Shown: positions 470 through 12,836 of the stretch, one piece after another
Numbering within the stretch: the stretch's first letter is position 1
Layout of the letters: each line of letters starts with the position of its first letter
IMG/VR virus record: IMGVR_UViG_3300025545_000003
Location: 32,001 to 96,000 of that record
DNA: 64,000 nucleotides
Source: a virus
Direction: 5' to 3' (one strand)
The notes under the pieces: generated by a model
What the model was told of the DNA's origin: nothing
Database searches by the model: none
What the model saw: the letters and a program-made list of their open reading frames with translations, nothing else
Program-made: the position numbers and the translations under genes

Positions 470-503
470 TCCGGCGAAGCTCATCTGGTAGAGCGGGCGG
501 TTG
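470..503 (+). pseudogene. 5' half of split tRNA (Asn-like)
   Basis: TCCGGCG acceptor plus D-arm; pairs with CGCCGGA at 1045-1051. Confidence 0.85.
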
Positions 504-529
504 ACAACCGAAGGGTCTTGCCTTACTTT
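501..529 (+). promoter_or_regulatory. sigma70-type promoter for the endonuclease
   Basis: TTGACA-N17-TACTTT just upstream of ATG 536. Confidence 0.5.
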
Positions 530-535
530 GAGGGC

Positions 536-946
536 ATGAACAAGAGCCCTAAAACTATCGGCGAGCGCAGTGAAGGCATGGTGCTGGCAGCCCTCTTGAG
601 GGCGGGCAAGGTTGTGTTGCAACCCTTCGGGGACAACCAACGGTACGACCTTGTGGTGGATGAGGATGGGAAATTCATCCGGGTCCAGTGCAAGACCGCC
701 CGCTTGAAGAACGGCGCTTTGGCCTTCGATACATGCTCCTCTCAAACCCATCGGGGGAAGGGGAAGCAAGATTACAGGGGGCAAGCGGACTTGTTTGGGG
801 TCTATTCTCCTGACAGGGACGCCGTGTACCTTGTACCCGTTGAGGATGTCGGGGTTACCCAAGCCCGACTCAGGCTGTCCAAACCTCGTAATGGCCAATC
901 CAAAGGCGTCCGCTTTGCGGCGGATTATCTTCTCGATCTGGGGTAG
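536..946 (+). CDS. PD-(D/E)XK homing endonuclease (I-Ssp6803I-like family)
   Basis: G..SE...PFGDNQRYDLVVD...RVQCKT motif; stop TAG = positions 8-10 of the following tRNA. Confidence 0.85.
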   Translation: MNKSPKTIGERSEGMVLAALLRAGKVVLQPFGDNQRYDLVVDEDGKFIRVQCKTARLKNGALAFDTCSSQTHRGKGKQDYRGQADLFGVYSPDRDAVYLVPVEDVGVTQARLRLSKPRNGQSKGVRFAADYLLDLG

Positions 947-1009
947 CTCAATAGGTAGAGCGCCGGTCTGTTAAATCGGTTGTTGAGGGTTCAAGTCCCT
1001 CCCCCAGAG
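937..1009 (+). tRNA. tRNA-Asn(GTT), replacement copy
   Basis: Full cloverleaf, loop CT-GTT-AA. Confidence 0.93.
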
Positions 1010-1013
1010 CTAC

Positions 1014-1052
1014 AAGCTCCTCATGTTGTGGGTTCGAGTCCCACCGCCGGAG
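1014..1052 (+). pseudogene. 3' half of split tRNA (Asn-like)
   Basis: T-arm GTGGG-TTCGAGT-CCCAC then CGCCGGA-G. Confidence 0.85.
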
Positions 1053-1055
1053 CTT

Positions 1056-1557
1056 GAAGGGCTGGCTGTTCCCTTTCGGGGGTTCAGTCTGTGACGGGCC
1101 GTATGGGGTCCGTAGGAAACATCGGAGCAATCCGGTGGAAGGGGAGTCCTTGTCACAGGCCCCCGCCAGTCACCTCTCGGGGTGGTTGGTCCGTCCATGC
1201 AAGCCGTAGGTAGCCCGGTCAGGGCGGGTCGTCCACCAAAGGCGGCTCTAGTCCCGAGTCTGGGGTTGGCCCCACCGACAGGTGGGTGAAGCATGGCCTG
1301 TCAGCGATGGCAGTCATGCGAAGGATAGGCGGGGACGCCTTGAGCCAACCAATCCAACTGGACGAAGGAGGATTCCCAAGCGGCAGTCGGTCAGTTTGAG
1401 GGGTGGGAGCCCTGAAGGCGGTCGGCATGTAGAGGGGCGAAGGGTGAAATCCCCGGAGTCCTGAAGACAGGGTAAAGCCCGCCGGGGCGAATACCAGAGG
1501 ACGTGTTGCATTCCCCTCCTCAAAAGGGAAGGGAACGACTGGCAGGGCACGCCCTTA
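1056..1557 (+). ncRNA. Large structured ncRNA, GOLLD-like
   Basis: ~500 nt without a credible ORF; ends pair (AAGGGC/GCCCTT); GCCAGTC/GACTGGC long-range helix; many tetraloop hairpins; phage tRNA-array context. Confidence 0.55.
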
Positions 1558-1562
1558 TGACA

Positions 1563-1635
1563 TGCGAATTAGCTCAGTTGGTAGAGCGCATCCTTCGTAG
1601 GGATGAGGTCGTTGGTTCAAGTCCAACCCTTGCAA
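1563..1635 (+). tRNA. tRNA-Thr(CGT), acceptor stem with two mismatches (possibly defective)
   Basis: Normal D/anticodon/T arms; TGCGAAT/CCTTGCA acceptor. Confidence 0.65.
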
Positions 1636-1639
1636 ACAA

Positions 1640-1940
1640 AGGAAAGACCCTGCCGGTCTGTGTGGTAAGTGACCTAATCCCGTCCCCGCAAGGGAAGGCG
1701 GGCCGGTGAAGCCCCCAAGGTGGAGCCGGTTGGTGGGAAGCTGAAGCGTAGGGGCGGCCACCCCTGCCGGATGTGGAAAGCCGATGCAGCACAGGCGACG
1801 AGGGAAACGCCACCCTCCAACAAAGGCGGTCACGACTGGCTACCGGGGAGACCCGGTGGACACGGGGAGAACTTGGCGGGGGACCGTCAAGGTAATGCCC
1901 TGAGAGGCCGGTTATGAAAACGGGTAGTCTCACCGTTCCT
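1640..1940 (+). ncRNA. ~300-nt structured ncRNA candidate
   Basis: Closed by AGGAA/TTCCT and AGAC/GTCT; many GNRA-capped hairpins; no credible ORF. Confidence 0.45.
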
Positions 1941-1971
1941 CATTCTCCCCTCCCTTCGGGGCGGGGACTAT

Positions 1972-2048
1972 CGGAGAGTAGCGCAGCCTGGTAGCGCACC
2001 TGGTTCGGGACCAGGGGGTCGGGGGTTCGAATCCCCCCTCTCCGACCA
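1972..2048 (+). tRNA. tRNA-Pro(CGG)
   Basis: Cloverleaf, CCA. Confidence 0.95.
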
Positions 2049-2080
2049 CGACAGAGACAGCCCGGAGAGACGGGCACCAT

Positions 2081-2154
2081 CGGGATGTGGCGCAGTCTGG
2101 CAGCGCACTTGGCTGGGGGCCAAGGGGCCGTCGGTTCGAATCCGACCATCCCGA
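2081..2154 (+). tRNA. tRNA-Pro(GGG)
   Basis: Cloverleaf. Confidence 0.95.
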
Positions 2155-2161
2155 CTTTCAA

Positions 2162-2233
2162 TCCTGACCTAGCTCAATGGCAGAGCGCTCGGCTGTGGAC
2201 CGGGAGATTCGGGTTCAACTCCCGGGGTTAGGA
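2162..2233 (+). tRNA. tRNA with GTG anticodon (His-like, lacks G-1:C73)
   Basis: Loop CT-GTG-GA; acceptor (T)CCTGACC/GGTTAGG(A). Confidence 0.75.
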
Positions 2234-2247
2234 CGGACAAGGGCTAT

Positions 2248-2285
2248 GGGGTAGAGGCCGAAGTTGGACGAGGCACATTAGACTG
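2248..2285 (+). pseudogene. 5' half of split tRNA (Asp-like)
   Basis: GGGGTAG acceptor pairs with CTATCCC at 3028-3034; D-arm GCC..GGC. Confidence 0.75.
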
Positions 2286-2315
2286 GCTATACTCTCCTCA
2301 TTAGTAGGAGGTAGC

Positions 2316-2936
2316 ATGTACAAGGAAGCCACGAAGCAAGAGGCCCTCCGCCTTCGCCAACAGCAGCGCCTTTCCCTTCGAGAGATCCAAGCCCAAACAG
2401 GGGTCTCTAAAGGAACCCTCTCCAAGTGGTTGCAGGGGATGCCGTTAGACAGGGAAGAGGTGCGGGCAAAACTCCGCCTCAATGGAACCAGCAAGGGACG
2501 AGCAAAAGCTGACCGGGTTGAATCTGCCTTACACCGCCGTTTCGGTGTTCCCATGAACAGCCACTACAAGGCTAAGATTGCAGAAGCAGCGATCCTTCTT
2601 CGGGCTGGCTTGTTGGGGGTGGATACCTACCAGAGCCCCTTTGATGGAGACAAGGCCGACTGGGTGTTTGATGTGAAGGGACGCCTCCTTAAGGTGCAGG
2701 TGAAATGGGCGGCCACACCAGCCAAACATGGGGCACCACAAGTGAAAGTACGATGTGCCGGGGGCCGTTCTGGACTCCGGTGCTACACGGAGGGGGAATT
2801 CGACATTCTTGTAGGATATGACCTTTACACCGACACTGCCTATGTGTGGACGTGGGATGAGGTGAAGGATTTCACCAGCACTGTTTCCTGTTGGGATGAA
2901 GCAGAGGAACGCTGGGACAAGATCACGGTCTCATAG
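2316..2936 (+). CDS. HTH + PD-(D/E)XK homing endonuclease
   Basis: N-terminal HTH (LSLREIQAQTGVSKGTLSKWL); SPFDGDKADWVFD..LKVQVK; stop inside tRNA-Asp. Confidence 0.85.
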   Translation: MYKEATKQEALRLRQQQRLSLREIQAQTGVSKGTLSKWLQGMPLDREEVRAKLRLNGTSKGRAKADRVESALHRRFGVPMNSHYKAKIAEAAILLRAGLLGVDTYQSPFDGDKADWVFDVKGRLLKVQVKWAATPAKHGAPQVKVRCAGGRSGLRCYTEGEFDILVGYDLYTDTAYVWTWDEVKDFTSTVSCWDEAEERWDKITVS

Positions 2937-3001
2937 GGGAGTCAGGAGTCCCCACCTGCCTGTCACGCAGGAGATCCCGGGTTCAAATCCCGGTGGGACC
3001 G
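2927..3001 (+). tRNA. tRNA-Asp(GTC), replacement copy
   Basis: Cloverleaf, CCTGC-CTGTCAC-GCAGG. Confidence 0.93.
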
Positions 3002-3003
3002 CC

Positions 3004-3035
3004 GGAGGAAGTGGGTTCGAGTCCCATCTATCCCG
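3004..3035 (+). pseudogene. 3' half of split tRNA (Asp-like)
   Basis: T-arm plus CTATCCC-G. Confidence 0.8.
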
Positions 3036-3037
3036 CT

Positions 3038-3299
3038 AATCGCCGGGGGTGAAACCCGGAGGAACACAGTGGAAGCAGCAGGCTCCCCCTCGGGGGAGGC
3101 CGTGCAAGCGTAACTCCTGCCGTGGAAGCTGTGGAAAACCGGGCGAATCCCCACTTGGGACCTTGTGGACACGCAGGCTGGGTAGCTCCAATCGGCAGAG
3201 CGCTGGGCAACGCTTGCACGGCTTTGGGCCCAGAGGTAGGGGGTTCGAGTCCTTCCCTGGGTACACAAGAAGCGGGATGTCCAAGTTCCAACGGCGATT
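3038..3299 (+). ncRNA. ~260-nt RNA with an embedded tRNA-like domain (3176-3263)
   Basis: AATCGCCG/CGGCGATT closure; internal D-arm and T-arm; ~20-nt loop at the anticodon position. Confidence 0.55.
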
Positions 3300-3304
3300 T
3301 TCAT

Positions 3305-3377
3305 GGGGGTGAGGTCTGCTGGGCGGACGCTGGCTTGTCAGGTCAGAACGGGGAGGGTTCGATTCCCTTCACTCCCG
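3305..3377 (+). tRNA. tRNA-Asp(GTC)
   Basis: Cloverleaf, G73. Confidence 0.8.
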
Positions 3378-3381
3378 CTTT

Positions 3382-3454
3382 GGGTCCGTAGTGTTAATGT
3401 AGCATCCCTGGCTCTTAACCAGGCGGGTGGCGGGTTCAAGTCCCCCCGGACTCA
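3382..3454 (+). tRNA. tRNA-Lys(CTT)
   Basis: Cloverleaf. Confidence 0.85.
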
Positions 3455-3469
3455 CTGAAGTGTTTTCAT

Positions 3470-3542
3470 CCCTCCGTGGCGCAATTGGTAGCGCAAACGG
3501 CTCTTAACCGTGAGGTTGAAGGTTCGATTCCTTCCGGGGGGA
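3470..3542 (+). tRNA. tRNA-Lys(CTT)
   Basis: Cloverleaf. Confidence 0.92.
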
Positions 3543-3560
3543 CTAGCGTTTGTACTTTGT

Positions 3561-3637
3561 GACCCCGTCGTCTAGTTGGCTAGGACACCAGACTCTCAAT
3601 CTGGAGATCGCCGGTTCAAACCCGGTCGGGGTTACCA
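3561..3637 (+). tRNA. tRNA-Glu(CTC)
   Basis: Cloverleaf, CCA. Confidence 0.93.
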
Positions 3638-3638
3638 T

Positions 3639-3712
3639 CCTCCCGTAGCTCAGTAGGTAGAGCGGCGGCCCGATAAGCCGTGACAGCGAAGGTTCAATTC
3701 CTTTCGGGAGGA
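3639..3712 (+). tRNA. tRNA-Ile(GAT)
   Basis: Cloverleaf; unusual C33. Confidence 0.85.
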
Positions 3713-3739
3713 CTAGCAGAGGACTGTGGTGCTGGTTCA

Positions 3740-3813
3740 GCATAGATAGCTCAATTGGTTGAGCATCGGTCATTCAAACCGACGGTTACAGGTTCGATCC
3801 CTGTTCGTTTGCA
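3740..3813 (+). pseudogene. Degenerate tRNA (loop CATTCAA)
   Basis: D and T arms intact; bulged acceptor; A33. Confidence 0.55.
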
Positions 3814-3846
3814 ACAGCCCGACACCCGACCTTCCTCTGCTTCCCT

Positions 3847-3966
3847 CGAACAGTAGCTCAGTGTTGATGTACCCCCGCCAAGTTGCCGGTTGATGAAGCG
3901 GAAGGGCATCGATAGGGAGAGCGCCGGGACACTCGGAGGCCGCTGGTTCAAACCCAGCCTGTTCGA
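3847..3966 (+). ncRNA. tRNA-like RNA with a ~50-nt D-loop hairpin and no anticodon loop
   Basis: CGAACAG/CTGTTCG acceptor; GCTC/GAGC D-stem; CCGGG-ACA-CTCGG; T-arm. Confidence 0.7.
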
Positions 3967-3970
3967 CTTT

Positions 3971-4042
3971 GCGGGCGTAGCTCAGTGGTAGAGCATCGGG
4001 TTGCCAATCCGAAGGTCGTGGGTTCGAATCCCATCGCCCGCT
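3971..4042 (+). tRNA. tRNA-Gly(GCC)
   Basis: Cloverleaf. Confidence 0.95.
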
Positions 4043-4046
4043 CTAT

Positions 4047-4120
4047 GGTGTGGTCTTCTAATTGGCTAGGAAATCGGCCTTTCAAGCCGGGGAATGCGGG
4101 TTCGAATCCCGTCCACACTA
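4047..4120 (+). tRNA. tRNA-Glu(TTC)
   Basis: Cloverleaf. Confidence 0.93.
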
Positions 4121-4125
4121 CAAGA

Positions 4126-4292
4126 AGTCCGGTAGCCACCGGACGCGGCCGGAGACACCCCCGGTCGTCAGTCAGGTTGGCATCTGACGAACAGGGTAGC
4201 CGATCCCCGGTAATGGGGCGTCGTCAGGGAGGCGAAAGTAGGGCAACCGAAGGACGGTCTGAAATACATCGTCCGGGTCTTACCCCTGATCA
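4126..4292 (+). ncRNA. Structured RNA candidate
   Basis: Multiple hairpins; shares ATCTGAC..GTCAGGG..GAAAG..TAGGGCAAC with 9255-9397. Confidence 0.4.
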
Positions 4293-4293
4293 T

Positions 4294-4369
4294 GGGGCCT
4301 TAGCTCACTTGGGAGAGCGTCGGGATGGCATTCCGAAGGTAGCGGGTTCGATCCCCGCAGGCTCCACCA
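4294..4369 (+). tRNA. tRNA-Ala(GGC)
   Basis: G3:U70, CCA. Confidence 0.95.
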
Positions 4370-4398
4370 GGGCTTAGTTGCAGATCTATCTGCGTTGA

Positions 4399-4472
4399 TG
4401 GGGCGTCGTCCAAAGGCAGGACCCTGGGTTTTGGTCCCAGTGATGAGGGTTCGAATCCTTCCGCCTCAGCCA
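4399..4472 (+). tRNA. tRNA-Gln(TTG)
   Basis: Cloverleaf, CCA. Confidence 0.95.
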
Positions 4473-4486
4473 TTCAAGGAGGTGTC

Positions 4487-5287
4487 ATGAGCAAGATAGT
4501 AAAAGGCACCTCCCGGAGCGGTGTAGGAACTACGTTGGTGGTTCCGCAGCACCGGCTGGTGTTCGACATGGGGGCTCCCCTGGTGGAGTCCTTGGGCGTC
4601 CGTAAGGTGTTCATCACCCACGGGCACATGGATCACGCAGGGGCTCTGGTGTTCCACGCCAGCACACGGGGAATGATGGGAATGGGGCCGCCCCTGTTCC
4701 ACGTCCCGGCCTGGATGGAAGCCGACCTTCGGGTGATACTGAAGGCCGCCGCCCGCCTCAACGGTGGGGGAGTCCAGTTCGACATGGTCCCCATGGAAGC
4801 GGGCAAGAGTCACGATCTGGGAGGGCCTCGCAGAGTGGTGCCCTTCTACACCGACCACCGGCTACCGTGCCTCGGCTACAAGGTCTACCAGACCCGAAAC
4901 AAGCTCCGGGATGAGTTCATAGGACTTCCCGGAGAGGAGATCGGGCGGCTTCGGAAGGGTGGAACGGAAGTCACCCGTGAGGTAGAAGCCTTGGCACACA
5001 CGCACGTAGGGGACAGCCGGGTGACCGTGCTGGACAAACACCCCGAGGTGTTCCAGTCAGATGTGCTGGTGCTTGAGTGTACGTTCGTGGGCGACTACTC
5101 CTTGGAGGAAACGCACAAGCGGGGGCACACGCACCTGTCCGAACTGGCAGAGCGTGCGGAATTATTCAAGGACGTGAAGGCCGTTGTCCTGACACACTTC
5201 TCGATGCGACACAGCGAGAAGGAGGTCAAGGCGGAGGTCGCCAAGCTCCCCGAGTCCCTTCGGGACAAGATCCACCTCGTTTTCTAG
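4487..5287 (+). CDS. rnz: Ribonuclease Z (Thermotoga-type tRNase Z, MBL fold)
   Basis: THGHMDH, KL..EF.GLPG.EI exosite, GDS, ECTF, HTH, THFS.RH motifs. Confidence 0.85.
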   Translation: MSKIVKGTSRSGVGTTLVVPQHRLVFDMGAPLVESLGVRKVFITHGHMDHAGALVFHASTRGMMGMGPPLFHVPAWMEADLRVILKAAARLNGGGVQFDMVPMEAGKSHDLGGPRRVVPFYTDHRLPCLGYKVYQTRNKLRDEFIGLPGEEIGRLRKGGTEVTREVEALAHTHVGDSRVTVLDKHPEVFQSDVLVLECTFVGDYSLEETHKRGHTHLSELAERAELFKDVKAVVLTHFSMRHSEKEVKAEVAKLPESLRDKIHLVF

Positions 5288-5307: not shown

Positions 5308-5346
5308 TGGGGCATAGCTCAATTGGTAGAGTACCGTTGAACTTTG
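5308..5346 (+). pseudogene. 5' half of split tRNA (Gln-like)
   Basis: TGGGGCA pairs with TGCCCCA at 6044-6050. Confidence 0.85.
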
Positions 5347-5371: not shown

Positions 5372-5953
5372 ATGGGACGAAAGAGCCACATCTGGGACAC
5401 ACCCCCGGAACGCTTCCGCCAACTGGTACACACCCACACCACATGGAAAGGGCTCGCATTAGCCCTTGGGATGTCGATCTGTGGGGGGACATTCAAGACC
5501 ATCCGTAAAAGGATCCAGCAAGATGGGTTGGACGATCATCATTTGCGAGAGGGGGCCTCAAAACGAGGTGGCCTTTTGGCCGCTAAGAAACAGGAGCAGC
5601 CCCTTTCAGAGATCATGGTGAAAGATTCTTCCTACTCACGGTACCACCTAAAGGCCCGTCTACTGCGAGACAGGGTGTTGGAAAACAAGTGTGCCATGTG
5701 CGGTCTCGATCCTGTTTGGGAAGGAGATCCCCTCGTGATGGTTCTTGACCACATAAACGGGGAACCCCAAGACCACCGGGCAGGGAATCTGAGGTTGGTC
5801 TGCCCCAACTGCAACTCACAGCTTCCAACCTTTGCAGGTCGGAAAACGAAAAAGGGCGAGGTTCTTTGTGTGGACTGCGGGACACCCATCCACACAAGAA
5901 GTACCAGATGTCGTTCATGTAGCGGCAGGCATCGTTATTTTACTGGGGAGTAA
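5372..5953 (+). CDS. HNH homing endonuclease
   Basis: CAMCG..LDHING..DHR..NLRLVCPNCNSQ; stop TAA = tRNA positions 8-10. Confidence 0.9.
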   Translation: MGRKSHIWDTPPERFRQLVHTHTTWKGLALALGMSICGGTFKTIRKRIQQDGLDDHHLREGASKRGGLLAAKKQEQPLSEIMVKDSSYSRYHLKARLLRDRVLENKCAMCGLDPVWEGDPLVMVLDHINGEPQDHRAGNLRLVCPNCNSQLPTFAGRKTKKGEVLCVDCGTPIHTRSTRCRSCSGRHRYFTGE

Positions 5954-6016
5954 CTCAACTGGCAGAGTGCCGTCCTCTGAAGGCGGATGTTGTGGGTTCG
6001 AGTCCCACCTCCCCAG
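5944..6016 (+). tRNA. tRNA-Gln(CTG), replacement copy
   Basis: Cloverleaf. Confidence 0.93.
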
Positions 6017-6018
6017 CC

Positions 6019-6051
6019 CATAGGTTGAAGGTTCAAGTCCTTCTGCCCCAG
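6019..6051 (+). pseudogene. 3' half of split tRNA (Gln-like)
   Basis: T-arm plus TGCCCCA-G. Confidence 0.85.
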
Positions 6052-6254: not shown

Positions 6255-6288
6255 CGGACGGTAGCTCAGTGGTAGAGCTTCGGTAGCT
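6255..6288 (+). pseudogene. 5' half of split tRNA (Ile/Met-like)
   Basis: CGGACGG pairs with TCGTCCG; GGTAG pairs with CTACC at 6740. Confidence 0.85.
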
Positions 6289-6322: not shown

Positions 6323-6670
6323 GTGACAACCATCGTGAAATGTGAGCAGTGCGGCAGGGAGTACGTCCCGGACAGGAAAAAGGGACACCGTGGAACCCTT
6401 TGCAACTCTTGTGTGGTCAACACCAGGAGAGCAAGCGTAAAGGAAAAGGCAGTCTCCTACAAAGGAGGGGCGTGCGCCATCTGCGGTTACGACCGGTGTG
6501 CGAGAGCCTTGGGGTTCCACCATAAGGACCCTGCCAAGAAGGATTTTCCTCTTGGGGCCAACTACACGAGGTCGTGGGACAAACTGAAGGTGGAGTTGGA
6601 TAAGTGCATCCTCCTCTGCGCCAACTGTCACGCTGAAGTTCATGATGGGATGGTTGAACTCGGGGGGTAG
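6323..6670 (+). CDS. HNH homing endonuclease
   Basis: YKGGACAICGY..FHHKDP..ELDKCILLCANCHAEVH; stop TAG = tRNA positions 8-10. Confidence 0.9.
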   Translation: MTTIVKCEQCGREYVPDRKKGHRGTLCNSCVVNTRRASVKEKAVSYKGGACAICGYDRCARALGFHHKDPAKKDFPLGANYTRSWDKLKVELDKCILLCANCHAEVHDGMVELGG

Positions 6671-6733
6671 CTCAGTGGCTAGAGCGAACGGCTGATAACC
6701 GTTAGGGCGAGGGTTCGAGTCCCTCTCTCCCGA
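6661..6733 (+). tRNA. tRNA-Ile(GAT), replacement copy
   Basis: Cloverleaf. Confidence 0.93.
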
Positions 6734-6739
6734 CTTTTA

Positions 6740-6780
6740 CTACCGTGGGGCCGGAGGTTCGAATCCTCCTCGTCCGACCA
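6740..6780 (+). pseudogene. 3' half of split tRNA (Ile/Met-like)
   Basis: Anticodon 3' strand, T-arm, TCGTCCG-ACCA. Confidence 0.85.
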
Positions 6781-8179: not shown

Positions 8180-8182
8180 CCT

Positions 8183-8255: not shown

Positions 8256-8333
8256 CTCCCTTCAACAGCACCGCAACAAGGAGAACACCATGGTACTTCG
8301 TCTCAAACAGCCGCCGACCCCCATTCGTTTACT

Positions 8334-8409: not shown

Positions 8410-8414
8410 CTATT

Positions 8415-8488
8415 GCGGACGTAGCCAAGAGGTAAGGCATCGGGCTTCCACCCCGTGAGCGCCGGTTCGATTCCGGTCGTCCGCTCCA
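8415..8488 (+). tRNA. tRNA-Gly(TCC)
   Basis: Cloverleaf, CCA. Confidence 0.93.
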
Positions 8489-8499
8489 CCAACAGGGCT

Positions 8500-8895
8500 T
8501 AGGTAGTTCCTCTATTGCGTAGACACCCATGGGTAGGATGTCAGCCTCGGTGAAGCTGGGTACGCAGTGGAGGGGCACAAAACGACGCCTGCACCGCCCG
8601 TGAGATAGGCCCAAACGGGGAACCGTCAACCGGGGAGGGGGTGGAAGTCCTCTTGACCCGCCCGGAAGGGTCCTGCGTTGAGCCGTCATCTTGAGGGCGG
8701 CCTTGAAGGGCAGCGTAGGTACACCCCCTGAAGGACGCCCTTTGGCTGGTGCTTGGACTGGCCCCTGTGGATGAGGGTTTGTATCAACCAAGCTGGAAGC
8801 GGAGTACTCGTCCCCATTGTTGAATCCCACCTTCGGGTGCGGTACTGGACGAGCCGGAAGTACCCCATGGCACGGCGTACTTCCGGCTGTGGGCG
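8500..8895 (+). ncRNA. ~400-nt structured ncRNA candidate
   Basis: Long hairpins (AGCCGGAAGTAC/GTACTTCCGGCT; CTCGTCC/GGACGAG); phage promoter motif at 8497. Confidence 0.45.
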
Positions 8896-8898
8896 TGA

Positions 8899-8970
8899 GG
8901 GCGTATAACTCAGCGGAAGAGTGCCGTCTTGACAAGGCGGAAGTCCCTGGTTCAATCCCAGGTACGCCCA
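8899..8970 (+). tRNA. tRNA-Val(GAC)
   Basis: Cloverleaf. Confidence 0.93.
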
Positions 8971-8987
8971 CTGAATCGGAGGGCTAG

Positions 8988-9173
8988 GTGACGAACAAGG
9001 ACAAGTGGTTCGCAACCTGTATGGTGTTGATGCTTGTGACAGGCTTCGGTCTTGTGGGGCTTGGCCTCGACTCAACGCTGGCATCGATCTTTGAGGTGGC
9101 CGCAGCCGCCATCTGGCTCTTTGGAGTTCCGAAAGTCAGCCGTAGAGCACACCAGTACATCTACGGCAGGTAG
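8988..9173 (+). CDS. Small membrane protein
   Basis: RBS GGAGGG; two hydrophobic segments. Confidence 0.6.
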   Translation: MTNKDKWFATCMVLMLVTGFGLVGLGLDSTLASIFEVAAAAIWLFGVPKVSRRAHQYIYGR

Positions 9174-9179
9174 TTTTGG

Positions 9180-9251
9180 CGCGGGGTAGGGAAGTGGCAT
9201 CCTCCTTGGCTCATAACCAAGGGATCGGCGGTTCAAGTCCGCCCCCCGCAA
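9180..9251 (+). tRNA. tRNA-fMet(CAT)
   Basis: C1:A72 mismatch, CGCGGGG acceptor. Confidence 0.88.
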
Positions 9252-9254
9252 CCT

Positions 9255-9397
9255 CTCGGGCAATCTGACTCGGCCCGTAAGCCCGCCCCACGTCCCCGTC
9301 AGGGTGACGAGCACCCGAAAGGGTAGGGCAACAGGAGCAGACCGTGGGAAGACGCTTTGTACAGCGTCGGAATGCGTCCCGGAGGGACGCCCCACCG
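9255..9397 (+). ncRNA. Structured RNA candidate
   Basis: Motif shared with 4126-4292; several hairpins. Confidence 0.4.
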
Positions 9398-9398
9398 T

Positions 9399-9470
9399 GC
9401 GGGTGTAGTTCAGGGGTAGAACGTCAGCTTCCCAAGCTGGATGTCGTGGGTTCGAATCCCATCACCCGCT
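9399..9470 (+). tRNA. tRNA-Gly(CCC)
   Basis: Cloverleaf. Confidence 0.95.
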
Positions 9471-9474
9471 CTAT

Positions 9475-9547
9475 GGGGCCTTAGCTCACTTGGGAGAGCG
9501 CCGCTTTTGCAAGGCGGAGGTAGCCGGTTCGATCCCGGCAGGCTCCA
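9475..9547 (+). tRNA. tRNA-Ala(TGC)
   Basis: Cloverleaf, G3:U70. Confidence 0.95.
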
Positions 9548-9550
9548 CTA

Positions 9551-9608
9551 TGGGGAGGGCGGGGTGGTCAGGCCCGAAAGGGAGCAGCCATCCTGACCCT
9601 ACCCACCA
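9551..9608 (+). ncRNA. ffs: Minimal SRP (4.5S-like) RNA
   Basis: Hairpin with TCAGG-CCC-GAAA-GGG-AGCAG domain IV signature. Confidence 0.75.
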
Positions 9609-9659
9609 GGCTTAGCCTCCCGTTCACCTGTGTTGAAGAGGTGGACGACGGAGGACGAC

Positions 9660-10106
9660 ATGAGCGTTACATTTTGGTGCCCCGAAGCTCCCCGAGAGGC
9701 CATCGAGACCCCTTGCTGGGGCGAGTGCGACGAAACCTGCCCCATGTGTCACGGCACCAACGTGACCACGGAACAGGTCAGCCCGCACGAGATGAACCTC
9801 GCCAACGCCAACGCCTACAACATCCTCCTCGCCTTGGGTGTCCAGAGTGACGAATCCATGTGCGGCGGGTGGGAGACCCCCGAGGACATCCGCACCATCA
9901 GGGCGGCGATCCTCAAGGCCCGCAACGTGACAGGCCGCAGGGAAGGGGCACACCGAGACGCCGAATCCTACGGCGGGCCGGGAACTGGAACCTGCCGGGT
10001 CGTTTCGCAGGGCTACACCGACGAGCAGGTACTCGACCGGCTGACCCGGTTGGACAAGCTCCTCGCCTACGCTTTGGAGAACAGTCACCGGGTGGTTTGG
10101 GGATGA
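9660..10106 (+). CDS. Hypothetical protein (Cys-rich N-terminus)
   Basis: RBS GGAGGA; phage codon usage. Confidence 0.75.
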   Translation: MSVTFWCPEAPREAIETPCWGECDETCPMCHGTNVTTEQVSPHEMNLANANAYNILLALGVQSDESMCGGWETPEDIRTIRAAILKARNVTGRREGAHRDAESYGGPGTGTCRVVSQGYTDEQVLDRLTRLDKLLAYALENSHRVVWG

Positions 10107-10681
10107 GTGCTCACCGTGAGCGTGTGAAAATGCTCAAGCGGGTCAACGCCCACCAGCAAGTCAACGACCCCTTCTGGTTGTCCGGCTACACCGACGGAAG
10201 CCACCATCCCGACACAGGGAAGGGCGGCGTGGGCCTGTGGGTACGGGACAACGAGACCCGAATCCTCAAGGCTATACCGACCCCTCCGTGGGCTGTGAAC
10301 TCCAACCTCGTGGAACTGTTCGGGGTCTGCGCCGCCATTGAGACGGCCCTGACGGAACTCACACAGGAAGCCAACATCCTCGTCATCAAGACGGACAGCC
10401 AGAGCACGGCCAACTGGTTCGGCTGGCAGGGCAACAAGTCCGTACCGAAGCAGCCTGAAGCCCTCGAGATGATGCAGCACGTCCTAGAGCTTGCCACCGA
10501 CCGCCGAGTGAAGGTGGTCGTCAAGTGGGTGAAGGGACACCAAGGCACGGGCAGCGTCGTGGGCTACTTGAACAACCGGGTCGACAAGATGGCCCGTGAT
10601 GCACGACTGAAAGGTGTACCCTCTCGCTGGTCCTGCCGGGTCAACGAGGAACGCAAGCAAGGGCCTGTAGCTCAACGGTAG
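10103..10681 (+). CDS. rnhA: Ribonuclease HI
   Basis: YTDGS, VELFG, TDSQ, WVKGH, NNRVDKMA motifs. Confidence 0.9.
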   Translation: MSAHRERVKMLKRVNAHQQVNDPFWLSGYTDGSHHPDTGKGGVGLWVRDNETRILKAIPTPPWAVNSNLVELFGVCAAIETALTELTQEANILVIKTDSQSTANWFGWQGNKSVPKQPEALEMMQHVLELATDRRVKVVVKWVKGHQGTGSVVGYLNNRVDKMARDARLKGVPSRWSCRVNEERKQGPVAQR

Positions 10682-10733
10682 AGCCTCCCGCTCATAACGG
10701 GACGGTCGACGGGTTCGACTCCCTCCGGGCCCA
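10661..10733 (+). tRNA. tRNA(CAT), probably Ile2 (lysidine type)
   Basis: GGGCCTG acceptor, A73. Confidence 0.85.
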
Positions 10734-10783
10734 CTAGCCCCTAAACAGCAAGCAGCAGGGTAGGATAAGGCAGGAGGTGCCTC

Positions 10784-11023
10784 ATGCCGGATCTACCCTA
10801 CGTGATGCTCACTGGACTCATCCTCATGCTGGTCGGTGTTCCCCTCTGGATGTACCGCTCAGAGAAGAAGAAGGTGGAGGCCGGGTGTTGCGGGAAGCCG
10901 TGGATCTCCTACTGCCGTGACTCACAGGGCGGCATCGGCTTGAACTGTCAGGAGTGCGACAACGGCACTTGGGTATCCTACTACCGCAAGGGCTTCGTTG
11001 AGGGCGAACAGCAACCATTCTAG
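10784..11023 (+). CDS. Small membrane-anchored Cys-containing protein
   Basis: RBS AGGAGGT; N-terminal TM segment. Confidence 0.7.
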   Translation: MPDLPYVMLTGLILMLVGVPLWMYRSEKKKVEAGCCGKPWISYCRDSQGGIGLNCQECDNGTWVSYYRKGFVEGEQQPF

Positions 11024-11093
11024 GCTCGTAGCTCAGTGGGAGAGCGCCTGCTTCACACGCAGGAAGTCCCCGGTTCAAAACCGGGCGGGCCTA
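11022..11093 (+). tRNA. tRNA-Val(CAC)
   Basis: Cloverleaf. Confidence 0.93.
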
Positions 11094-11111
11094 CTTTGAA
11101 GGAGGGCTAAC

Positions 11112-11639
11112 ATGGAAAGCACACGCAGAGGGTTCCTTGCAGGAGCCGCTGGAGTCACAGGTTGGCTCCTGTTCGGCAAGGGTGCCGAAGCCGCAGCGAA
11201 GGCCGAGGGCAACCGTGTCCTGCGGGAGTTCGATGAGGACGTTGAGGGGTTTCCGCATCACGTCATCGAGATGCAGTTGACCTACGACAACCCGATGCTC
11301 CAGTTCGACGTGCCACTGCCGGACTCGGACTTCGATGGCCTACAGATCAGCATCCCAAGGCGTCAGACGGTGGGCCGCCACACGGCGACGGAGCTTGTGG
11401 ACTACCACAAGCGGAGCCAACCCGACGGTGACATCTGGGGGATCATCCGCCAGCGTGTACCCCAGATGGCACAGGCGAGGGTGAAGAATCCCGCCTACGG
11501 CGACCACAAGATGCACATCGCCACGGTGGTGTGCCACTGCCCGAGCGGGATCGAGGTGGGCATGACGGTGTTGCCCGTAGGCGTGACCGTCGAGGACATG
11601 CACCTGACCATCCCGGCAACGCTGTTGCCGCAGTCCTGA
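11112..11639 (+). CDS. Hypothetical protein with twin-arginine (Tat) signal
   Basis: STRRGFLAGAAG...AEA. Confidence 0.75.
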   Translation: MESTRRGFLAGAAGVTGWLLFGKGAEAAAKAEGNRVLREFDEDVEGFPHHVIEMQLTYDNPMLQFDVPLPDSDFDGLQISIPRRQTVGRHTATELVDYHKRSQPDGDIWGIIRQRVPQMAQARVKNPAYGDHKMHIATVVCHCPSGIEVGMTVLPVGVTVEDMHLTIPATLLPQS

Positions 11640-11657
11640 CAACGCACAAGGCTCCAA

Positions 11658-11733
11658 GGGCGAGTAGCGCAGTGGAAGTAGCACCGGCTTTACAAGCCGT
11701 AGGTCGTGGGTTCAATCCCCACCTCGCCCACCA
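11658..11733 (+). tRNA. tRNA-Val(TAC)
   Basis: Cloverleaf, CCA. Confidence 0.9.
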
Positions 11734-11772
11734 TTCAGGCTTAGCCGGACGCCCGTCCGTGTAGAGAACCTC

Positions 11773-12078
11773 ATGAAGCAGGAAACCCAAGAGTGCCCCC
11801 TGTGCCACCGTGACTGCCCACAGGCGATCATGACGGAGCACCACTTGAAGACCCGCAGGGTGGACAAGGACGACACGGCGATGCTGTGCCGGGAGTGCCA
11901 CAAGACGGTACACGGGCTCTTTGACAACAAGGAACTACGGGACTCGTCCAGAGGGCTGGACACGGTCGAGGGGCTGCTTGCAGACCCCTTGATCCGAAAG
12001 GCCCTCTCCCACATCAGGAAGCTCCCGCCCGGTCAGTTCATGCGGATGTATCGGGCCGGACGCCGCAAGAAGCGCTAG
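11773..12078 (+). CDS. Small HNH-family protein
   Basis: CPLC..TEHHL..LCRECHKTVH. Confidence 0.8.
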   Translation: MKQETQECPLCHRDCPQAIMTEHHLKTRRVDKDDTAMLCRECHKTVHGLFDNKELRDSSRGLDTVEGLLADPLIRKALSHIRKLPPGQFMRMYRAGRRKKR

Positions 12079-12094
12079 ACACCAATCCAAACAT

Positions 12095-12168
12095 GCCCCG
12101 GTAGCTCAGTGGATTAGAGCACACCCCTGCGGAGGGTGGGGTCGGAGGTTCGAATCCTCTCCGGGGTA
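12095..12168 (+). tRNA. tRNA-Arg(GCG)
   Basis: CACCC-CT-GCG-GA-GGGTG, A20. Confidence 0.9.
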
Positions 12169-12173
12169 CTTGT

Positions 12174-12185
12174 GCGCCCGTAGCT
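12174..12185 (+). pseudogene. 5' stub of split tRNA (Arg-like)
   Basis: GCGCCCGTAGCT; pairs with CGGGCGT at 12829-12835. Confidence 0.7.
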
Positions 12186-12228
12186 TTATGGTTTCTCCTC
12201 CGGTATTATCCGGGCAACAGGAGGAACC

Positions 12229-12741
12229 ATGCCAACCTGCAAGAAATGTGGTGTCTCATTCCCCAACAGGATAACGGTTGAGGGGGGCAGGCGAAACATC
12301 TCCAGACGGAAATTCTGCCTGACATGTTCCCCTTGGGGGTCTCGAAACCGAAAAGACCTGAGTGCCCCCTCGATTACCAGCGGAGTGAAAACCTGCCCTC
12401 GGTGTGGGGACGTGAAGGAACTCACTGAGTTCTACACCAGACGGAGAGGTAAGGAGTCCGAGCCTTCCTCCTACTGTAAGGCATGCGCCGCAGAGGAAGC
12501 ACGGGGACGTATGCGGGCATTGAAAGCCCGTTGCGTTGAGTACAAGGGAGGCGGGTGCCGGGTTTGTGGGTACTCGAAAAGCCTCGCTGCGTTGGATTTC
12601 CATCACAGGGATCCCAAGGAGAAAGGTTACGGGATTTCGCAGATCCGAGGTTGGAAATTCGAACGGGTAAAGGAAGAATTAGATAAATGTGACCTTCTGT
12701 GTCGGAATTGCCACTCAGAGGTTCATGACGAGGCCCTGTAA
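12229..12741 (+). CDS. HNH homing endonuclease
   Basis: Zn fingers plus YKGGGCRVCGY..FHHRDP..LLCRNCHSEVH; stop TAA = tRNA positions 8-10. Confidence 0.9.
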   Translation: MPTCKKCGVSFPNRITVEGGRRNISRRKFCLTCSPWGSRNRKDLSAPSITSGVKTCPRCGDVKELTEFYTRRRGKESEPSSYCKACAAEEARGRMRALKARCVEYKGGGCRVCGYSKSLAALDFHHRDPKEKGYGISQIRGWKFERVKEELDKCDLLCRNCHSEVHDEAL

Positions 12742-12804
12742 CCCAGTGGATAGGGTGCCTGACTTCGAATCAGGTTGTCGCAGGTTCGAGTCCTGCCAGG
12801 GCCA
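12732..12804 (+). tRNA. tRNA-Arg(TCG), replacement copy
   Basis: Cloverleaf. Confidence 0.93.
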
Positions 12805-12806
12805 TC

Positions 12807-12836
12807 AGGTTGGGAGTTCGAATCTCCCCGGGCGTT
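12807..12836 (+). pseudogene. 3' part of split tRNA (Arg-like)
   Basis: T-arm plus CGGGCGT. Confidence 0.8.

What the first reader, a model, noticed from the sequence alone, without database searches (positions are those of the whole stretch)
470..12836. Intron-less homing cassettes: endonuclease plus complete replacement tRNA inserted inside a tRNA gene of the same isotype
SEEN five times in this array with the layout [5' tRNA half]-[endonuclease ORF whose stop codon is nt 8-10 of a full tRNA]-[3' tRNA half]. Asn 470-1052 (PD-(D/E)XK); Asp 2248-3035 (HTH-PD-(D/E)XK); Gln 5308-6051 (HNH); Ile/Met-like 6255-6780 (HNH); Arg 12174-12836 (HNH). The outer halves have complementary acceptor strands (TCCGGCG/CGCCGGA, GGGGTAG/CTATCCC, TGGGGCA/TGCCCCA, CGGACGG/TCGTCCG, GCGCCCG/CGGGCGT). 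Their identity elements fit the isotype of the nested tRNA, which is sequence-divergent. Only ~25-45 nt separate the 5' half from the ORF, so there is no room for a group I ribozyme. KNOWN: I-Ssp6803I homes into tRNA genes via a group I intron, and T4 SegB is free-standing in a tRNA cluster. INFERENCE: these elements avoid splicing by delivering a recoded, cleavage-immune rescue tRNA (a natural cleave-and-rescue gene drive). The design recurs in at least three nuclease lineages and also diversifies the phage's tRNA sequences.
Basis: partly seen in the sequence, partly recalled or inferred. Interest (0 to 1): 0.9.

Follow-up and report, generated by a model that had tools for sequence, protein, structure and literature searches.

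The report
Nuclease cassettes carrying spare tRNA genes
In a large uncultured bacteriophage, six selfish DNA-cutting-enzyme genes each sit inside a broken tRNA gene and, instead of splicing themselves out, each brings a complete spare tRNA gene; I found the design in other phages but not in the literature I could search.

Summary
All five cassettes have the stated layout. A sixth lies on the minus strand (tRNA-Leu, 38929-39616). Each has a 5' tRNA piece, 25-43 nt of leader, a homing-endonuclease ORF, a full tRNA and a 3' tRNA piece that abuts it. The ORF's stop codon lies inside the full tRNA. Outer acceptor strands pair 7/7 in all six (joint shuffle p about 1e-12). Rfam finds no ribozyme.

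The nucleases belong to three lineages: PF11645 (I-Ssp6803I type), HNH phrog_10822 and HNH phrog_2255. Relatives elsewhere sit beside tRNAs of the same isotype: Asn for c1, Leu for c6, Ile for c4.

Filled-versus-empty pairs in cultured phages show that such nucleases insert into tRNA genes and can carry their own tRNA allele:
- Bacillus phage Anthony versus Evoli.
- E. coli phage mistaenkt versus FelixO1.

My best reading, at about 0.65, is a homing cassette that carries a replacement tRNA and leaves the target halves as dead remnants. Cleavage specificity and immunity of the nested tRNA were not tested. "Same isotype" is firm only for Leu and Asn. The stop-inside-tRNA feature is not nuclease-specific.

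Earlier notes of this scan report the same design on other DNA. I found no published description.

The parts
470..510 (+). c1 outer 5' tRNA piece (Asn-like: U1, D arm, anticodon-arm region whose loop reads as a TTGACA box)
   Evidence: nhmmer 473-517, model positions 4-48. Alignment A1 shows homology to a full-length pseudo-tRNA-Asn in L054 and to a 5' half in L055.
536..946 (+). c1 homing endonuclease, PD-(D/E)XK of the I-Ssp6803I family; stop on nt 8-10 of the nested tRNA
   Evidence: Pfam PF11645 E 7e-37. PDB 2OST E 1e-7, with the D...QxK motif aligned. The identical 136-aa protein P0001 is on record.
937..1009 (+). c1 nested tRNA-Asn(GTT), the only Asn gene on the contig
   Evidence: ARAGORN; Rfam tRNA 70.6 bits.
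1019..1052 (+). c1 outer 3' tRNA piece (variable loop, T arm, acceptor strand, discriminator G)
   Evidence: model positions 40-70; 7/7 pairing with 470-476.
2248..2272 (+). c2 outer 5' piece (acceptor strand, A8 G9, start of the D arm)
   Evidence: A8-G9 is shared with the second tRNA-Asp at 3305 (read from the sequence).
2316..2936 (+). c2 endonuclease, HTH plus PD-(D/E)XK
   Evidence: Pfam PF11645 E 1.5e-11 plus HTH_23.
2927..3001 (+). c2 nested tRNA-Asp(GTC)
   Evidence: 58.9 bits.
3002..3035 (+). c2 outer 3' piece
   Evidence: 3001-3034, model positions 39-72.
5308..5338 (+). c3 outer 5' piece (nt 1-31; U1, Gln- or Asn-like)
   Evidence: 5310-5336, model positions 3-29.
5372..5953 (+). 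c3 HNH endonuclease (phrog_10822)
   Evidence: PHROG E 3.9e-40; 34% identical to the c6 nuclease.
5944..6016 (+). c3 nested tRNA-Gln(CTG), the only CTG gene on the contig
6017..6051 (+). c3 outer 3' piece (from the variable loop onward; the anticodon loop and the 3' stem strand are missing)
   Evidence: model positions 37-70.
6255..6286 (+). c4 outer 5' piece (C1, D arm, 5' strand of the anticodon stem)
   Evidence: 6257-6282.
6323..6670 (+). c4 HNH endonuclease (phrog_2255), GTG start
   Evidence: PHROG E 1e-28; 48% identical to the FelixO1 ORF44 HNH that overlaps tRNA-Ile.
6661..6733 (+). c4 nested tRNA-Ile(GAT)
   Evidence: 68.4 bits.
6734..6777 (+). c4 outer 3' piece. It may start with a whole 7-nt anticodon-type loop directly after the nested tRNA. 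Its isotype is uncertain.
   Evidence: 6742-6777, model positions 38-73.
12174..12186 (+). c5 outer 5' piece (acceptor strand plus about 6 nt only)
12229..12741 (+). c5 HNH endonuclease (phrog_2255)
   Evidence: PHROG E 2.4e-51; 44.6% identical to the HNH that splits tRNA-Asp in Bacillus phage Anthony.
12732..12804 (+). c5 nested tRNA-Arg(TCG), the only TCG gene on the contig
   Evidence: 73 bits.
12805..12836 (+). c5 outer 3' piece (3' strand of the anticodon stem, variable loop, T arm, acceptor)
39054..39554 (-). c6 HNH endonuclease (phrog_10822); stop codon on nt 4-6 of the nested tRNA
   Evidence: PHROG E 4.9e-48; Pfam HNH.
38979..39059 (-). c6 nested tRNA-Leu(TAG), the only TAG gene on the contig
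38929..38978 (-). c6 outer 3' piece. It starts with a complete anticodon loop carrying TAG, then the stem strand, long variable arm, T arm and acceptor. The insertion is clean, between nt 31 and 32.

Best explanation
Each element is a compact mobile cassette made of a short leader, a homing-endonuclease gene and a complete tRNA gene. It lies inside the anticodon-arm or D-arm region of a resident tRNA gene of the same or a very similar isotype.

Shown: the anatomy; the absence of any known ribozyme; the linkage of each nuclease lineage to one tRNA isotype across unrelated phages; and, in cultured relatives, presence/absence polymorphism at a tRNA gene.

Inferred:
1. In a mixed infection the nuclease cuts the uninterrupted tRNA allele of a cassette-free genome, in or near the anticodon arm.
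2. Recombinational repair copies the cassette from the donor. The two tRNA pieces and the flanks serve as homology arms.
3. The broken outer tRNA is dead.
4. The nested tRNA differs in sequence from the target, so it escapes cutting and keeps that decoding function in a phage that carries a near-complete tRNA set.
5. Because the stop codon lies inside the nested tRNA, RNase P maturation of that tRNA would remove the stop from the nuclease mRNA. One transcript could then give either a tRNA or nuclease, which would keep nuclease levels low.

Over time the outer pieces decay or recombine away, leaving the commoner forms: a 5' piece only, or nuclease plus tRNA with no pieces.
For: Anatomy in the window:
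- Six cassettes share one layout. Outer acceptor strands pair 7/7 and the T arms are intact. The joint chance is 1.5e-12.
- There is no intron or ribozyme hit at E up to 1. The insert holds only a 25-43-nt leader, the ORF and the tRNA.
- In four cassettes the nested tRNA is the only gene on the contig for its anticodon: Asn GTT, Gln CTG, Arg TCG and Leu TAG.
- c1 keeps the catalytic motif of I-Ssp6803I.

The same nested layout in other uncultured phages:
- L012, L013 (the same contig as L126), L067, L077 and L078, and L091. In L077 and L091 the insertion lies in the anticodon loop of an Asn gene at nt 36-38.
[quoted passage not shown] Relatives carry the same unit in other surroundings.

Isotype linkage:
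- Partner-tRNA labels cluster on the nuclease tree: 45 changes against a shuffled mean of 56, reached in 0 of 200 shuffles.
- c6 relatives at 43-50% identity lie beside tRNA-Leu in L139-L144, mistaenkt and phiPsa347.
- c4 is 48% identical to the Ile-linked HNH of FelixO1.

Filled versus empty:
- Anthony and Vinny carry a c5-like HNH in place of nt 29-34 of a tRNA-Asp. That gene is intact in Evoli, Hoody T and CAM003, whose flanks are 99.6% identical.
- At one locus of 254 Felix-like records, only 10 align over at least 80% of the query, which spans the HNH and Leu allele B. In mistaenkt the unit is preceded by the first 10 nt of the alternative Leu allele found in FelixO1.
Against: - No cassette-free allele of this phage could be obtained.
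- Cleavage specificity and immunity of the nested tRNA are untested.
- In c2, c3 and c5 the insertion is not clean: 10-25 nt of the target are missing.
- Isotype identity of the outer pieces is firm only for Leu and Asn.
- How a cassette first enters a tRNA gene with both halves retained does not follow from standard double-strand-break repair on a nuclease-tRNA donor without halves.
- L054 and L061 carry the same unit directly after an unsplit tRNA-Asn, not inside one.
- All six cassettes here keep both halves, against about one in eight related units elsewhere. This is unexplained and could point to a function for the halves.
- The consensus scan does not support own promoters, except for c2.
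Confidence: 0.65

Rival explanations
1. These are ordinary free-standing homing endonucleases of tRNA arrays, of the SegB type, and the tRNA pieces are repair scars. The nuclease simply sits next to a resistant tRNA allele. The outer pieces are by-products of repeated breakage, misaligned repair and segmental duplication in a dense array of similar genes. They are not the two sides of one insertion event, and the nested tRNA is a resident gene rather than cargo.
For: - Most related nuclease-tRNA units have no outer halves.
- L054 and L061 have a whole tRNA-Asn upstream of the unit.
- The array holds other orphan tRNA pieces without any nuclease, for example the 5' piece at 38816-38844 on the minus strand.
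- SegB recognises a tRNA T-arm motif and carries neighbouring tRNA genes with it (PMC2330249).
- SegB drives segmental amplification (PMC13096335, abstract).
Against: - The two pieces of each pair fit each other in 6 of 6 cases, with 7/7 acceptor pairing, and each pair encloses exactly one nuclease and one tRNA.
- In c6 the pieces add up to one complete tRNA with no base lost or gained.
- The outer pieces differ in sequence from the nested tRNA, so they are not recent duplicates of it.
- The 3' piece always abuts the end of the nested tRNA.
- In mistaenkt the tRNA allele arrives together with the nuclease.
Confidence: 0.2
2. The outer halves still work at the RNA level. One possibility is that they are rejoined into a tRNA after RNase P/Z processing of the nested tRNA, perhaps by the phage's own RtcB ligase. 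Another is that the paired acceptor stem and T arm form a tRNA-like handle that lets RNase P and RNase Z cut the whole cassette out of the array transcript.
For: - All six pairs keep perfect acceptor pairing and canonical T arms while the anticodon region is sloppy.
- The phage encodes RtcB at 24220-25632 on the minus strand.
- All six units here keep both halves, against a minority elsewhere.
- c6, and possibly c4, retain every nucleotide of the outer tRNA.
Against: - c2, c3 and c5 lack an anticodon loop or large parts of the D and anticodon arms, so rejoining cannot give a decoding tRNA.
- RNase Z leaves a 5' phosphate on the trailer, which is not an RtcB substrate (established enzymology).
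- No cut is foreseeable at the end of the 5' half.
- c1 has A instead of the near-universal U at position 8, whereas its relatives L054 and L055 have T, as expected for decay.
- An OmpA-domain protein points to a bacterial host, so the archaeal bulge-helix-bulge splicing machinery is not expected.
- Phage RtcB is usually explained as repair of tRNAs cut by host anticodon nucleases.
Confidence: 0.08
3. These are decayed group I introns. The cassettes descend from intron-borne endonucleases in tRNA anticodon loops, as with I-Ssp6803I, and still splice by a reduced or unrecognised ribozyme.
For: - c1 and c2 belong to the family named 'group I intron-associated PD-(D/E)XK endonuclease'.
- The insertion points lie in or beside the anticodon loop.
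Against: - There is no Rfam intron hit at E up to 1.
- Non-coding, non-tRNA sequence in each insert totals under about 55 nt.
- In L130 the ORF's start and stop codons both lie in the anticodon loop, leaving nothing else.
- The two HNH lineages show the same design.
Confidence: 0.03

Closest known systems
Phage T4 SegB, a free-standing GIY-YIG homing endonuclease in the tRNA gene cluster (PMC2330249)
   Same: Both are selfish nucleases living in a phage tRNA array. SegB recognises a tRNA-gene motif and is inherited together with neighbouring tRNA genes in mixed infection. Neither has an intron.
   Different: SegB lies between tRNA genes, not inside one. It has no flanking halves of a target and no dedicated same-isotype replacement. 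It belongs to a different nuclease family, although the window also holds a free-standing GIY-YIG gene at 39697-40332.
I-Ssp6803I, the PD-(D/E)XK homing endonuclease of the Synechocystis tRNA-fMet group I intron (PDB 2OST)
   Same: c1 and c2 belong to the same protein family. The target is a tRNA gene, and the insertion lies in the anticodon-arm region.
   Different: I-Ssp6803I rides in a self-splicing intron that restores the tRNA. Here there is no ribozyme, and a second tRNA gene is carried instead.
T4 MobA plus the 50-nt bypass element of gene 60, a mobile cassette (Bonocora et al. 2011 PNAS; cited in PMC8300805; details from my own knowledge)
   Same: A homing-endonuclease gene is inserted into an essential gene. 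It travels with an extra element that keeps the function and makes the carrier immune.
   Different: There the split gene stays in use through two polypeptides and translational bypassing. Here the split gene appears to be abandoned and a whole spare gene is supplied.
Intron-less homing by free-standing endonucleases (T4 SegF, SegG and others; my own knowledge)
   Same: The nuclease cuts the allele of a related genome. The adjacent resistant allele is co-converted. The mistaenkt versus FelixO1 comparison fits this exactly.
   Different: In the window the resident allele is not replaced. It is split, and both pieces remain around the unit.
Synthetic homing drives with a recoded rescue copy, and ClvR (my own knowledge)
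   Same: The logic is to cut the wild-type allele of a needed gene and supply a linked copy that cannot be cut.
   Different: ClvR acts in trans without homing. The cassettes here sit in the target locus, so the homing-with-rescue design is the nearer analogue. Immunity of the nested tRNA has not been shown.
Split and intron-containing tRNA genes of Archaea (PMC4390854, PMC4033280)
   Same: tRNA genes are interrupted near the anticodon, and the halves have complementary acceptor strands.
   Different: The archaeal halves are joined by the bulge-helix-bulge endonuclease and RtcB. Here the host appears to be bacterial and three of the six pairs lack the anticodon arm.

Membership tests
PD-(D/E)XK homing endonucleases of the I-Ssp6803I family (Pfam PF11645) | Sequence match to the family profile above the curated cut-off | tested here: met
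   c1 scores 126.9 bits and c2 scores 44.9 bits against a cut-off of 26.1.
PD-(D/E)XK homing endonucleases of the I-Ssp6803I family (Pfam PF11645) | Catalytic D ... Q/E-x-K motif retained | tested here: met
   The alignment of c1 to 2OST covers the GD...YDL...VQxK block. c2 was not checked residue by residue.
PD-(D/E)XK homing endonucleases of the I-Ssp6803I family (Pfam PF11645) | [quoted passage not shown] | tested here: not met
   No intron model matched at E up to 1, and there is no space for one.
HNH homing endonucleases | Match to HNH profiles | tested here: met
   c3 and c6 match phrog_10822 (E 4e-40 and 5e-48). c4 and c5 match phrog_2255 (E 1e-28 and 2e-51). c6 matches Pfam HNH at 30.6 bits. 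Pfam hits for c3 and c5 fall below the cut-off.
Free-standing homing endonuclease with intron-less homing | The gene is not inside an intron or intein | tested here: met
Free-standing homing endonuclease with intron-less homing | Presence/absence polymorphism at the same locus among close relatives | tested here: inconclusive
   This is met for homologues in cultured phages: Anthony versus Evoli, and 10 of 254 Felix-like records. No relative of the window's own phage could be obtained.
Free-standing homing endonuclease with intron-less homing | The nuclease cuts the nuclease-free allele and spares the allele next to its own gene | not testable with these tools
   This needs purified enzyme or phage crosses.
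Group I intron | Conserved ribozyme core (P3-P8) | tested here: not met
   An Rfam scan of 1-14000 in E-value mode gave no intron family. The minus-strand array was not scanned. In c6 the leader is 31 nt and the 3' half abuts the nested tRNA.
Split tRNA, or tRNA with a protein-spliced intron (archaeal type) | The two halves give a complete cloverleaf including the anticodon loop | tested here: not met
   The halves are complete in c6 and perhaps in c4. They are incomplete in c2, c3 and c5.
Split tRNA, or tRNA with a protein-spliced intron (archaeal type) | Joined mature RNA exists | not testable with these tools

The most novel reading that the evidence does not exclude
The outer halves are not debris. 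Their paired acceptor stem and T arm would form a tRNA-like handle around the nuclease-tRNA unit. That handle could be processed by RNase P/Z. For the complete pairs (c6 and perhaps c4), the phage's own RtcB could rejoin the halves. That would make this a ribozyme-free, protein-processed tRNA 'intron' that itself contains a tRNA, in a bacteriophage.
Probability: 0.07. Interest if true: 0.9.

Novelty: new variant of a known kind. Interest (0 to 1): 0.75.

Why it matters
Homing endonucleases are thought to survive in essential genes only by hiding in self-splicing introns or inteins, or by sitting between genes. These cassettes show a third way: break the gene and bring a spare. That is the logic of engineered homing drives with a recoded rescue copy, apparently reached in nature by at least three nuclease lineages.

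It also offers a concrete mechanism for the turnover and diversification of phage tRNA arrays. It explains orphan tRNA fragments that annotation pipelines ignore or miscall. It predicts a set of nucleases with tRNA-gene specificities that can be read from their partner tRNA.

The stop codon buried in the tRNA suggests that nuclease translation and tRNA maturation compete on one transcript. This can be tested. Homologous units occur in culturable phages (Felix-like coliphages and Bastille-like Bacillus phages), so the model can be tested at the bench now.

Tried and rejected
Searches for relatives of this phage:
- Megablast of 1-13000 against 50,697 phage records returned only tRNA-sized hits.
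- The RNase Z-like gene found no viral loci.
- c3 found no viral loci.
- Exact-pattern scans for the 5' halves of c1 and c6 in viral and metagenome contigs found nothing.

Tools that were not available:
The 60 contigs that carry the identical c1 protein could therefore not be inspected for empty alleles.
I have no RNA evidence and no population evidence.

Analyses that gave no usable answer:
- I tried to define the junctions by deleting every possible interval and running ARAGORN. ARAGORN accepted hundreds of joins with many different anticodons, so I rejected this as uninformative.
- I tried to assign the isotype of the outer halves by similarity to the phage's own tRNAs. The result was decisive only for Leu.
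- By eye, c1, c2 and c3 show a TTGACA-like box at the left junction. The consensus scan supports only c2, and the region has no more promoter-like sites than shuffles. I treat own promoters as unproven.

Ideas considered and set aside:
- An archaeal virus with bulge-helix-bulge splicing: dropped because of an OmpA-domain protein and Shine-Dalgarno-type leaders.
- An assembly artefact: dropped because the design recurs six times here and in independent data sets.

Literature:
- Six full-text searches found no description of the nested design.
- Pope et al. 2014, on cluster M mycobacteriophages, is cited as implicating HNH genes in tRNA diversity (PMC5966550, PMC7589089). It is not held in the library, so I could not check what it describes.

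Full report
SETTING. The window is bases 32001-96000 of a 106,830-base IMG/VR viral contig that CheckV rates as about 20% complete. That implies a very large phage. G+C is about 60%. An OmpA-domain protein points to a bacterial host. The contig carries 52 ARAGORN-called tRNA genes in two arrays: plus strand at window 292-12918 and minus strand at window 37822-42327. The window also holds genes for an RNase Z-like metallo-beta-lactamase, QueF and RtcB.

At each of the five stated places there is an ORF whose stop codon falls on nt 8-10 of a full tRNA. To avoid confirming by eye, I scanned the whole window for T-arm-plus-acceptor pieces that belong to no called tRNA. For each I asked for an upstream 7-mer that pairs 7/7 with it and is followed by a D-arm start. 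The scan returned exactly the five cassettes, each enclosing one tRNA.

The sixth cassette has a tRNA-Leu 5' piece at 39616-39586, an HNH ORF at 39554-39054, tRNA-Leu(TAG) at 39059-38979 and a 3' piece at 38978-38929. It is the cleanest case. The 5' piece ends at nt 31. The 3' piece begins directly after the discriminator of the nested tRNA with a complete anticodon loop carrying TAG. So the outer gene is a whole class II tRNA-Leu(TAG) cut once, with nothing lost.

A profile of the phage's own tRNAs puts the other 3' pieces at positions about 37-73 and the 5' pieces of c1, c3 and c4 at about 3-29 or 3-48. The 5' pieces of c5 (about 13 nt) and c2 (about 17-25 nt) are only stubs. In c2, c3 and c5 part of the anticodon arm is missing.

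In shuffles of the upstream 150 nt, the acceptor match has a chance of 0.002-0.024 per cassette and 1.5e-12 for all six.

WHAT IS INSIDE. The nucleases fall into three lineages:
- c1 and c2 are PD-(D/E)XK proteins of Pfam PF11645, and c2 has an added HTH domain. c1 aligns to I-Ssp6803I (PDB 2OST) across the catalytic block.
- c3 and c6 are HNH proteins of phrog_10822, 34% identical to each other.
- c4 and c5 are HNH proteins of phrog_2255, 40% identical to each other.

Between the 5' piece and the start codon lie 25-43 nt. Between the nested tRNA and the 3' piece lie 0-10 nt. An Rfam scan of 1-14000 in E-value mode finds tRNAs and a GOLLD RNA but no intron or ribozyme.

The nested tRNAs score 59-73 bits. 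For Asn GTT, Gln CTG, Arg TCG and Leu TAG they are the only genes for that anticodon on the contig.

The stop-inside-tRNA feature is not special to the nucleases. The QueF gene ends on nt 8-10 of a tRNA-Phe.

THE UNIT OF NUCLEASE PLUS tRNA RECURS ELSEWHERE.

*c1 lineage.* I collected c1 relatives from 16 viral and 80 metagenomic loci. 26 rows of the tree are followed directly by tRNA-Asn. Eleven are followed by tRNA-Thr(GGT or TGT). In many of them the ORF again ends on nt 8-10 of the tRNA. On a tree of these proteins the partner-tRNA labels cluster: 45 changes against a shuffled mean of 56, reached in 0 of 200 shuffles. Switches of partner are nonetheless frequent.

*c6 lineage.* Its relatives at 43-50% identity lie beside tRNA-Leu in six IMG/VR loci and in the cultured phages mistaenkt and phiPsa347.

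*c4 lineage.* c4 is 48% identical to FelixO1 ORF44, which overlaps tRNA-Ile. That is closer than c4 is to its own genome's c5.

So each lineage keeps company with one isotype across phages of very different G+C content, while the tRNA sequences themselves are not conserved.

THE FULL NESTED LAYOUT ALSO RECURS. I found both outer halves, nuclease and inner tRNA in L012, L013 (the same contig as L126), L077 and L078, and L091. L067 has the inner tRNA upstream of the nuclease. In L077 and L091 the outer gene is a plain tRNA-Asn cut in its anticodon loop after nt 36-37. The inner Asn gene has the same loop but a different anticodon stem.

Other forms exist:
- A 5' piece only: L002, L055 and mistaenkt.
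- No pieces at all: the majority.
- A nuclease alone inside a tRNA gene with no inner tRNA: L017, L130 and Bacillus phage Anthony.
- A whole Asn gene directly upstream of the unit: L054 and L061.

Alignment A1 covers c1 and its nearest relatives, at 74-84% protein identity. It shows homology running from the TTGACA box to the last base of the tRNA, with different surroundings. It also shows that c1's outer pieces are homologous to the unsplit pseudo-tRNA-Asn of L054, including a compensatory change at acceptor pair 6-67. This is my basis for calling c1's outer gene an Asn gene. Plain similarity to the phage's own tRNAs did not decide the isotype for c1-c5.

FILLED VERSUS EMPTY. No relative of this phage was available, so I tested the idea on cultured homologues.

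1. Bacillus phages Anthony and Vinny carry an HNH that is 44.6% identical to c5. Evoli, Hoody T and CAM003 are 99.4-99.6% identical in the flanks and lack it. In its place they have an intact tRNA-Asp(GTC). In Anthony the tRNA is present as nt 1-28 and 35-73, with the HNH ORF between them, and the ORF's stop codon lies in the 3' piece. So this lineage does insert into the anticodon arm of a tRNA gene without an intron. In this case it brings no spare tRNA.

2. At the Ser-Leu-Lys-Ala-Gly locus of 254 Felix-like records, only 10 align over at least 80% of the query, which spans the c6-like HNH. In mistaenkt the HNH is preceded by the first 10 nt of the Leu allele found in FelixO1. It is followed by a complete, quite different Leu(TAG) allele. 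Homology to FelixO1 resumes at the CCA end. Sf19 and I14.1 have that second allele without the HNH. So the nuclease arrives with its own tRNA allele. That allele also exists alone, as expected for a resistant allele after loss of the nuclease.

HOW IT MOST LIKELY WORKS. I read the cassette as a homing element whose cargo is a replacement tRNA. Only the anatomy, the linkage and the polymorphism in homologues are shown. The rest is inferred from the known behaviour of these nuclease families (I-Ssp6803I, SegB and intron-less homing):
- The nuclease cuts the uninterrupted tRNA allele.
- Repair copies the cassette, with the two tRNA pieces and the flanks as homology arms.
- The broken gene stays broken.
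- The nested gene, divergent in sequence, keeps decoding and escapes cutting.

The A at position 8 of c1's outer piece, where its relatives have T, fits decay. Because the stop codon lies inside the nested tRNA, RNase P cleavage would leave the nuclease mRNA without a stop. I propose, as inference only, that this limits nuclease synthesis.

WHAT DOES NOT FIT.
- Standard break repair on a donor that has only nuclease plus tRNA cannot produce both outer halves. The origin of the nested form is therefore open.
- The right edge of the insert always coincides with the 3' end of the inner tRNA, for which I have no mechanism.
- This phage keeps both halves in six of six units, against roughly one in eight elsewhere, and all six have flawless acceptor and T stems.
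- Together with the phage's RtcB, this keeps an RNA-level role for the halves alive. However, three pairs lack an anticodon arm and so cannot yield a tRNA.

KNOWN OR NEW. The literature describes nucleases in tRNA arrays that cut tRNA genes and drag neighbouring tRNAs along (SegB, PMC2330249). It also describes HNH genes as the commonest non-tRNA genes in such arrays (PMC5966550, PMC8421152). The Felix O1 genome paper lists six HNH genes but does not link them to tRNAs (PMC3185647).

I found no paper describing a nuclease plus same-isotype tRNA nested in a split tRNA gene. Pope et al. 2014 could not be read.

Earlier notes of this scan report the same design on other DNA: Lys and Ser in other large phages, and GIY-YIG variants in bacteria. 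They are unchecked AI notes. They agree with my reading but did not shape it.

I class this as a new variant of a known kind. The components and the homing logic are familiar. The architecture and its recurrence in three lineages are not.

Noticed in passing
window 1496-1936 (+): A GOLLD RNA (Rfam RF02032, 154 bits, above the gathering score) lies inside the tRNA array, with tRNA-Thr(CGT) 1563-1635 embedded in it. The 440 nt before it (1054-1495) are non-coding and G+C-rich.
   Followed up: no
window 39697-40332 (-): A free-standing GIY-YIG plus NUMOD3 homing endonuclease (SegB-like) lies 80 nt upstream of the c6 5' tRNA-Leu piece. It is a fourth nuclease class in the arrays and has no tRNA halves of its own.
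   Followed up: partly
window 41245-41315 (-); also L004:6490-6560: An odd tRNA-like gene with a Trp anticodon loop (CTCCAAA) on a 6-7-bp anticodon stem, no nt 8-9 and a reduced D arm. ARAGORN misses it. The contig has no other tRNA-Trp. A similar element follows the nuclease-Asn unit in the unrelated locus L004.
   Followed up: no
window 3847-3966 (+): A tRNA-like element with a good acceptor stem and T arm, but a hairpin of about 50 nt inserted in the D loop and a non-standard anticodon arm (fold z-score only -1.6).
   Followed up: partly
window 38497-38648 (-): A Tyr-like class II tRNA (GTA loop, long variable arm, good T arm and acceptor) with an insertion of about 60-75 nt after the D-arm start. 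It holds no ORF. It could be the remains of a cassette or a small intron.
   Followed up: no
window 3176-3263 (+) and 3740-3813 (+): Two further tRNA-like genes that ARAGORN does not call. One holds an extra insert (Rfam 27.7 bits, just under the cut-off). The other is a good tRNA (46.9 bits).
   Followed up: no
window 38816-38844 (-): An orphan 5' tRNA piece (model positions 5-34) sits directly against tRNA-Thr(TGT), with no nuclease and no matching 3' piece. It shows that tRNA debris also occurs without a cassette.
   Followed up: no
window 40714-41124 (-): A QueF-family gene (preQ0 reductase, Pfam E 4.5e-21) lies inside the tRNA array. Its TAG stop is nt 8-10 of tRNA-Phe.
   Followed up: yes
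window 24220-25632 (-) and 4487-5287 (+): The phage encodes an RtcB RNA ligase (289 bits) and an RNase Z-like metallo-beta-lactamase inside the array. No CCA-adding enzyme (PF01743) was found on the contig, although most of its tRNA genes lack an encoded CCA.
   Followed up: partly
L130:1354-1820: A tRNA (anticodon region TAT) is interrupted by nothing but a 131-codon PD-(D/E)XK ORF. The ORF's ATG and TAA both lie within the anticodon loop. This is the most compact nuclease-in-tRNA form I saw, and the origin of the contig is unknown.
   Followed up: no
L136:1900-2700: A c2 relative (46% identity) sits between two tRNA-Gly(GCC) genes, and its stop falls on nt 8-10 of the second. This is another lineage and isotype with the upstream-tRNA, nuclease, downstream-tRNA form.
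   Followed up: no
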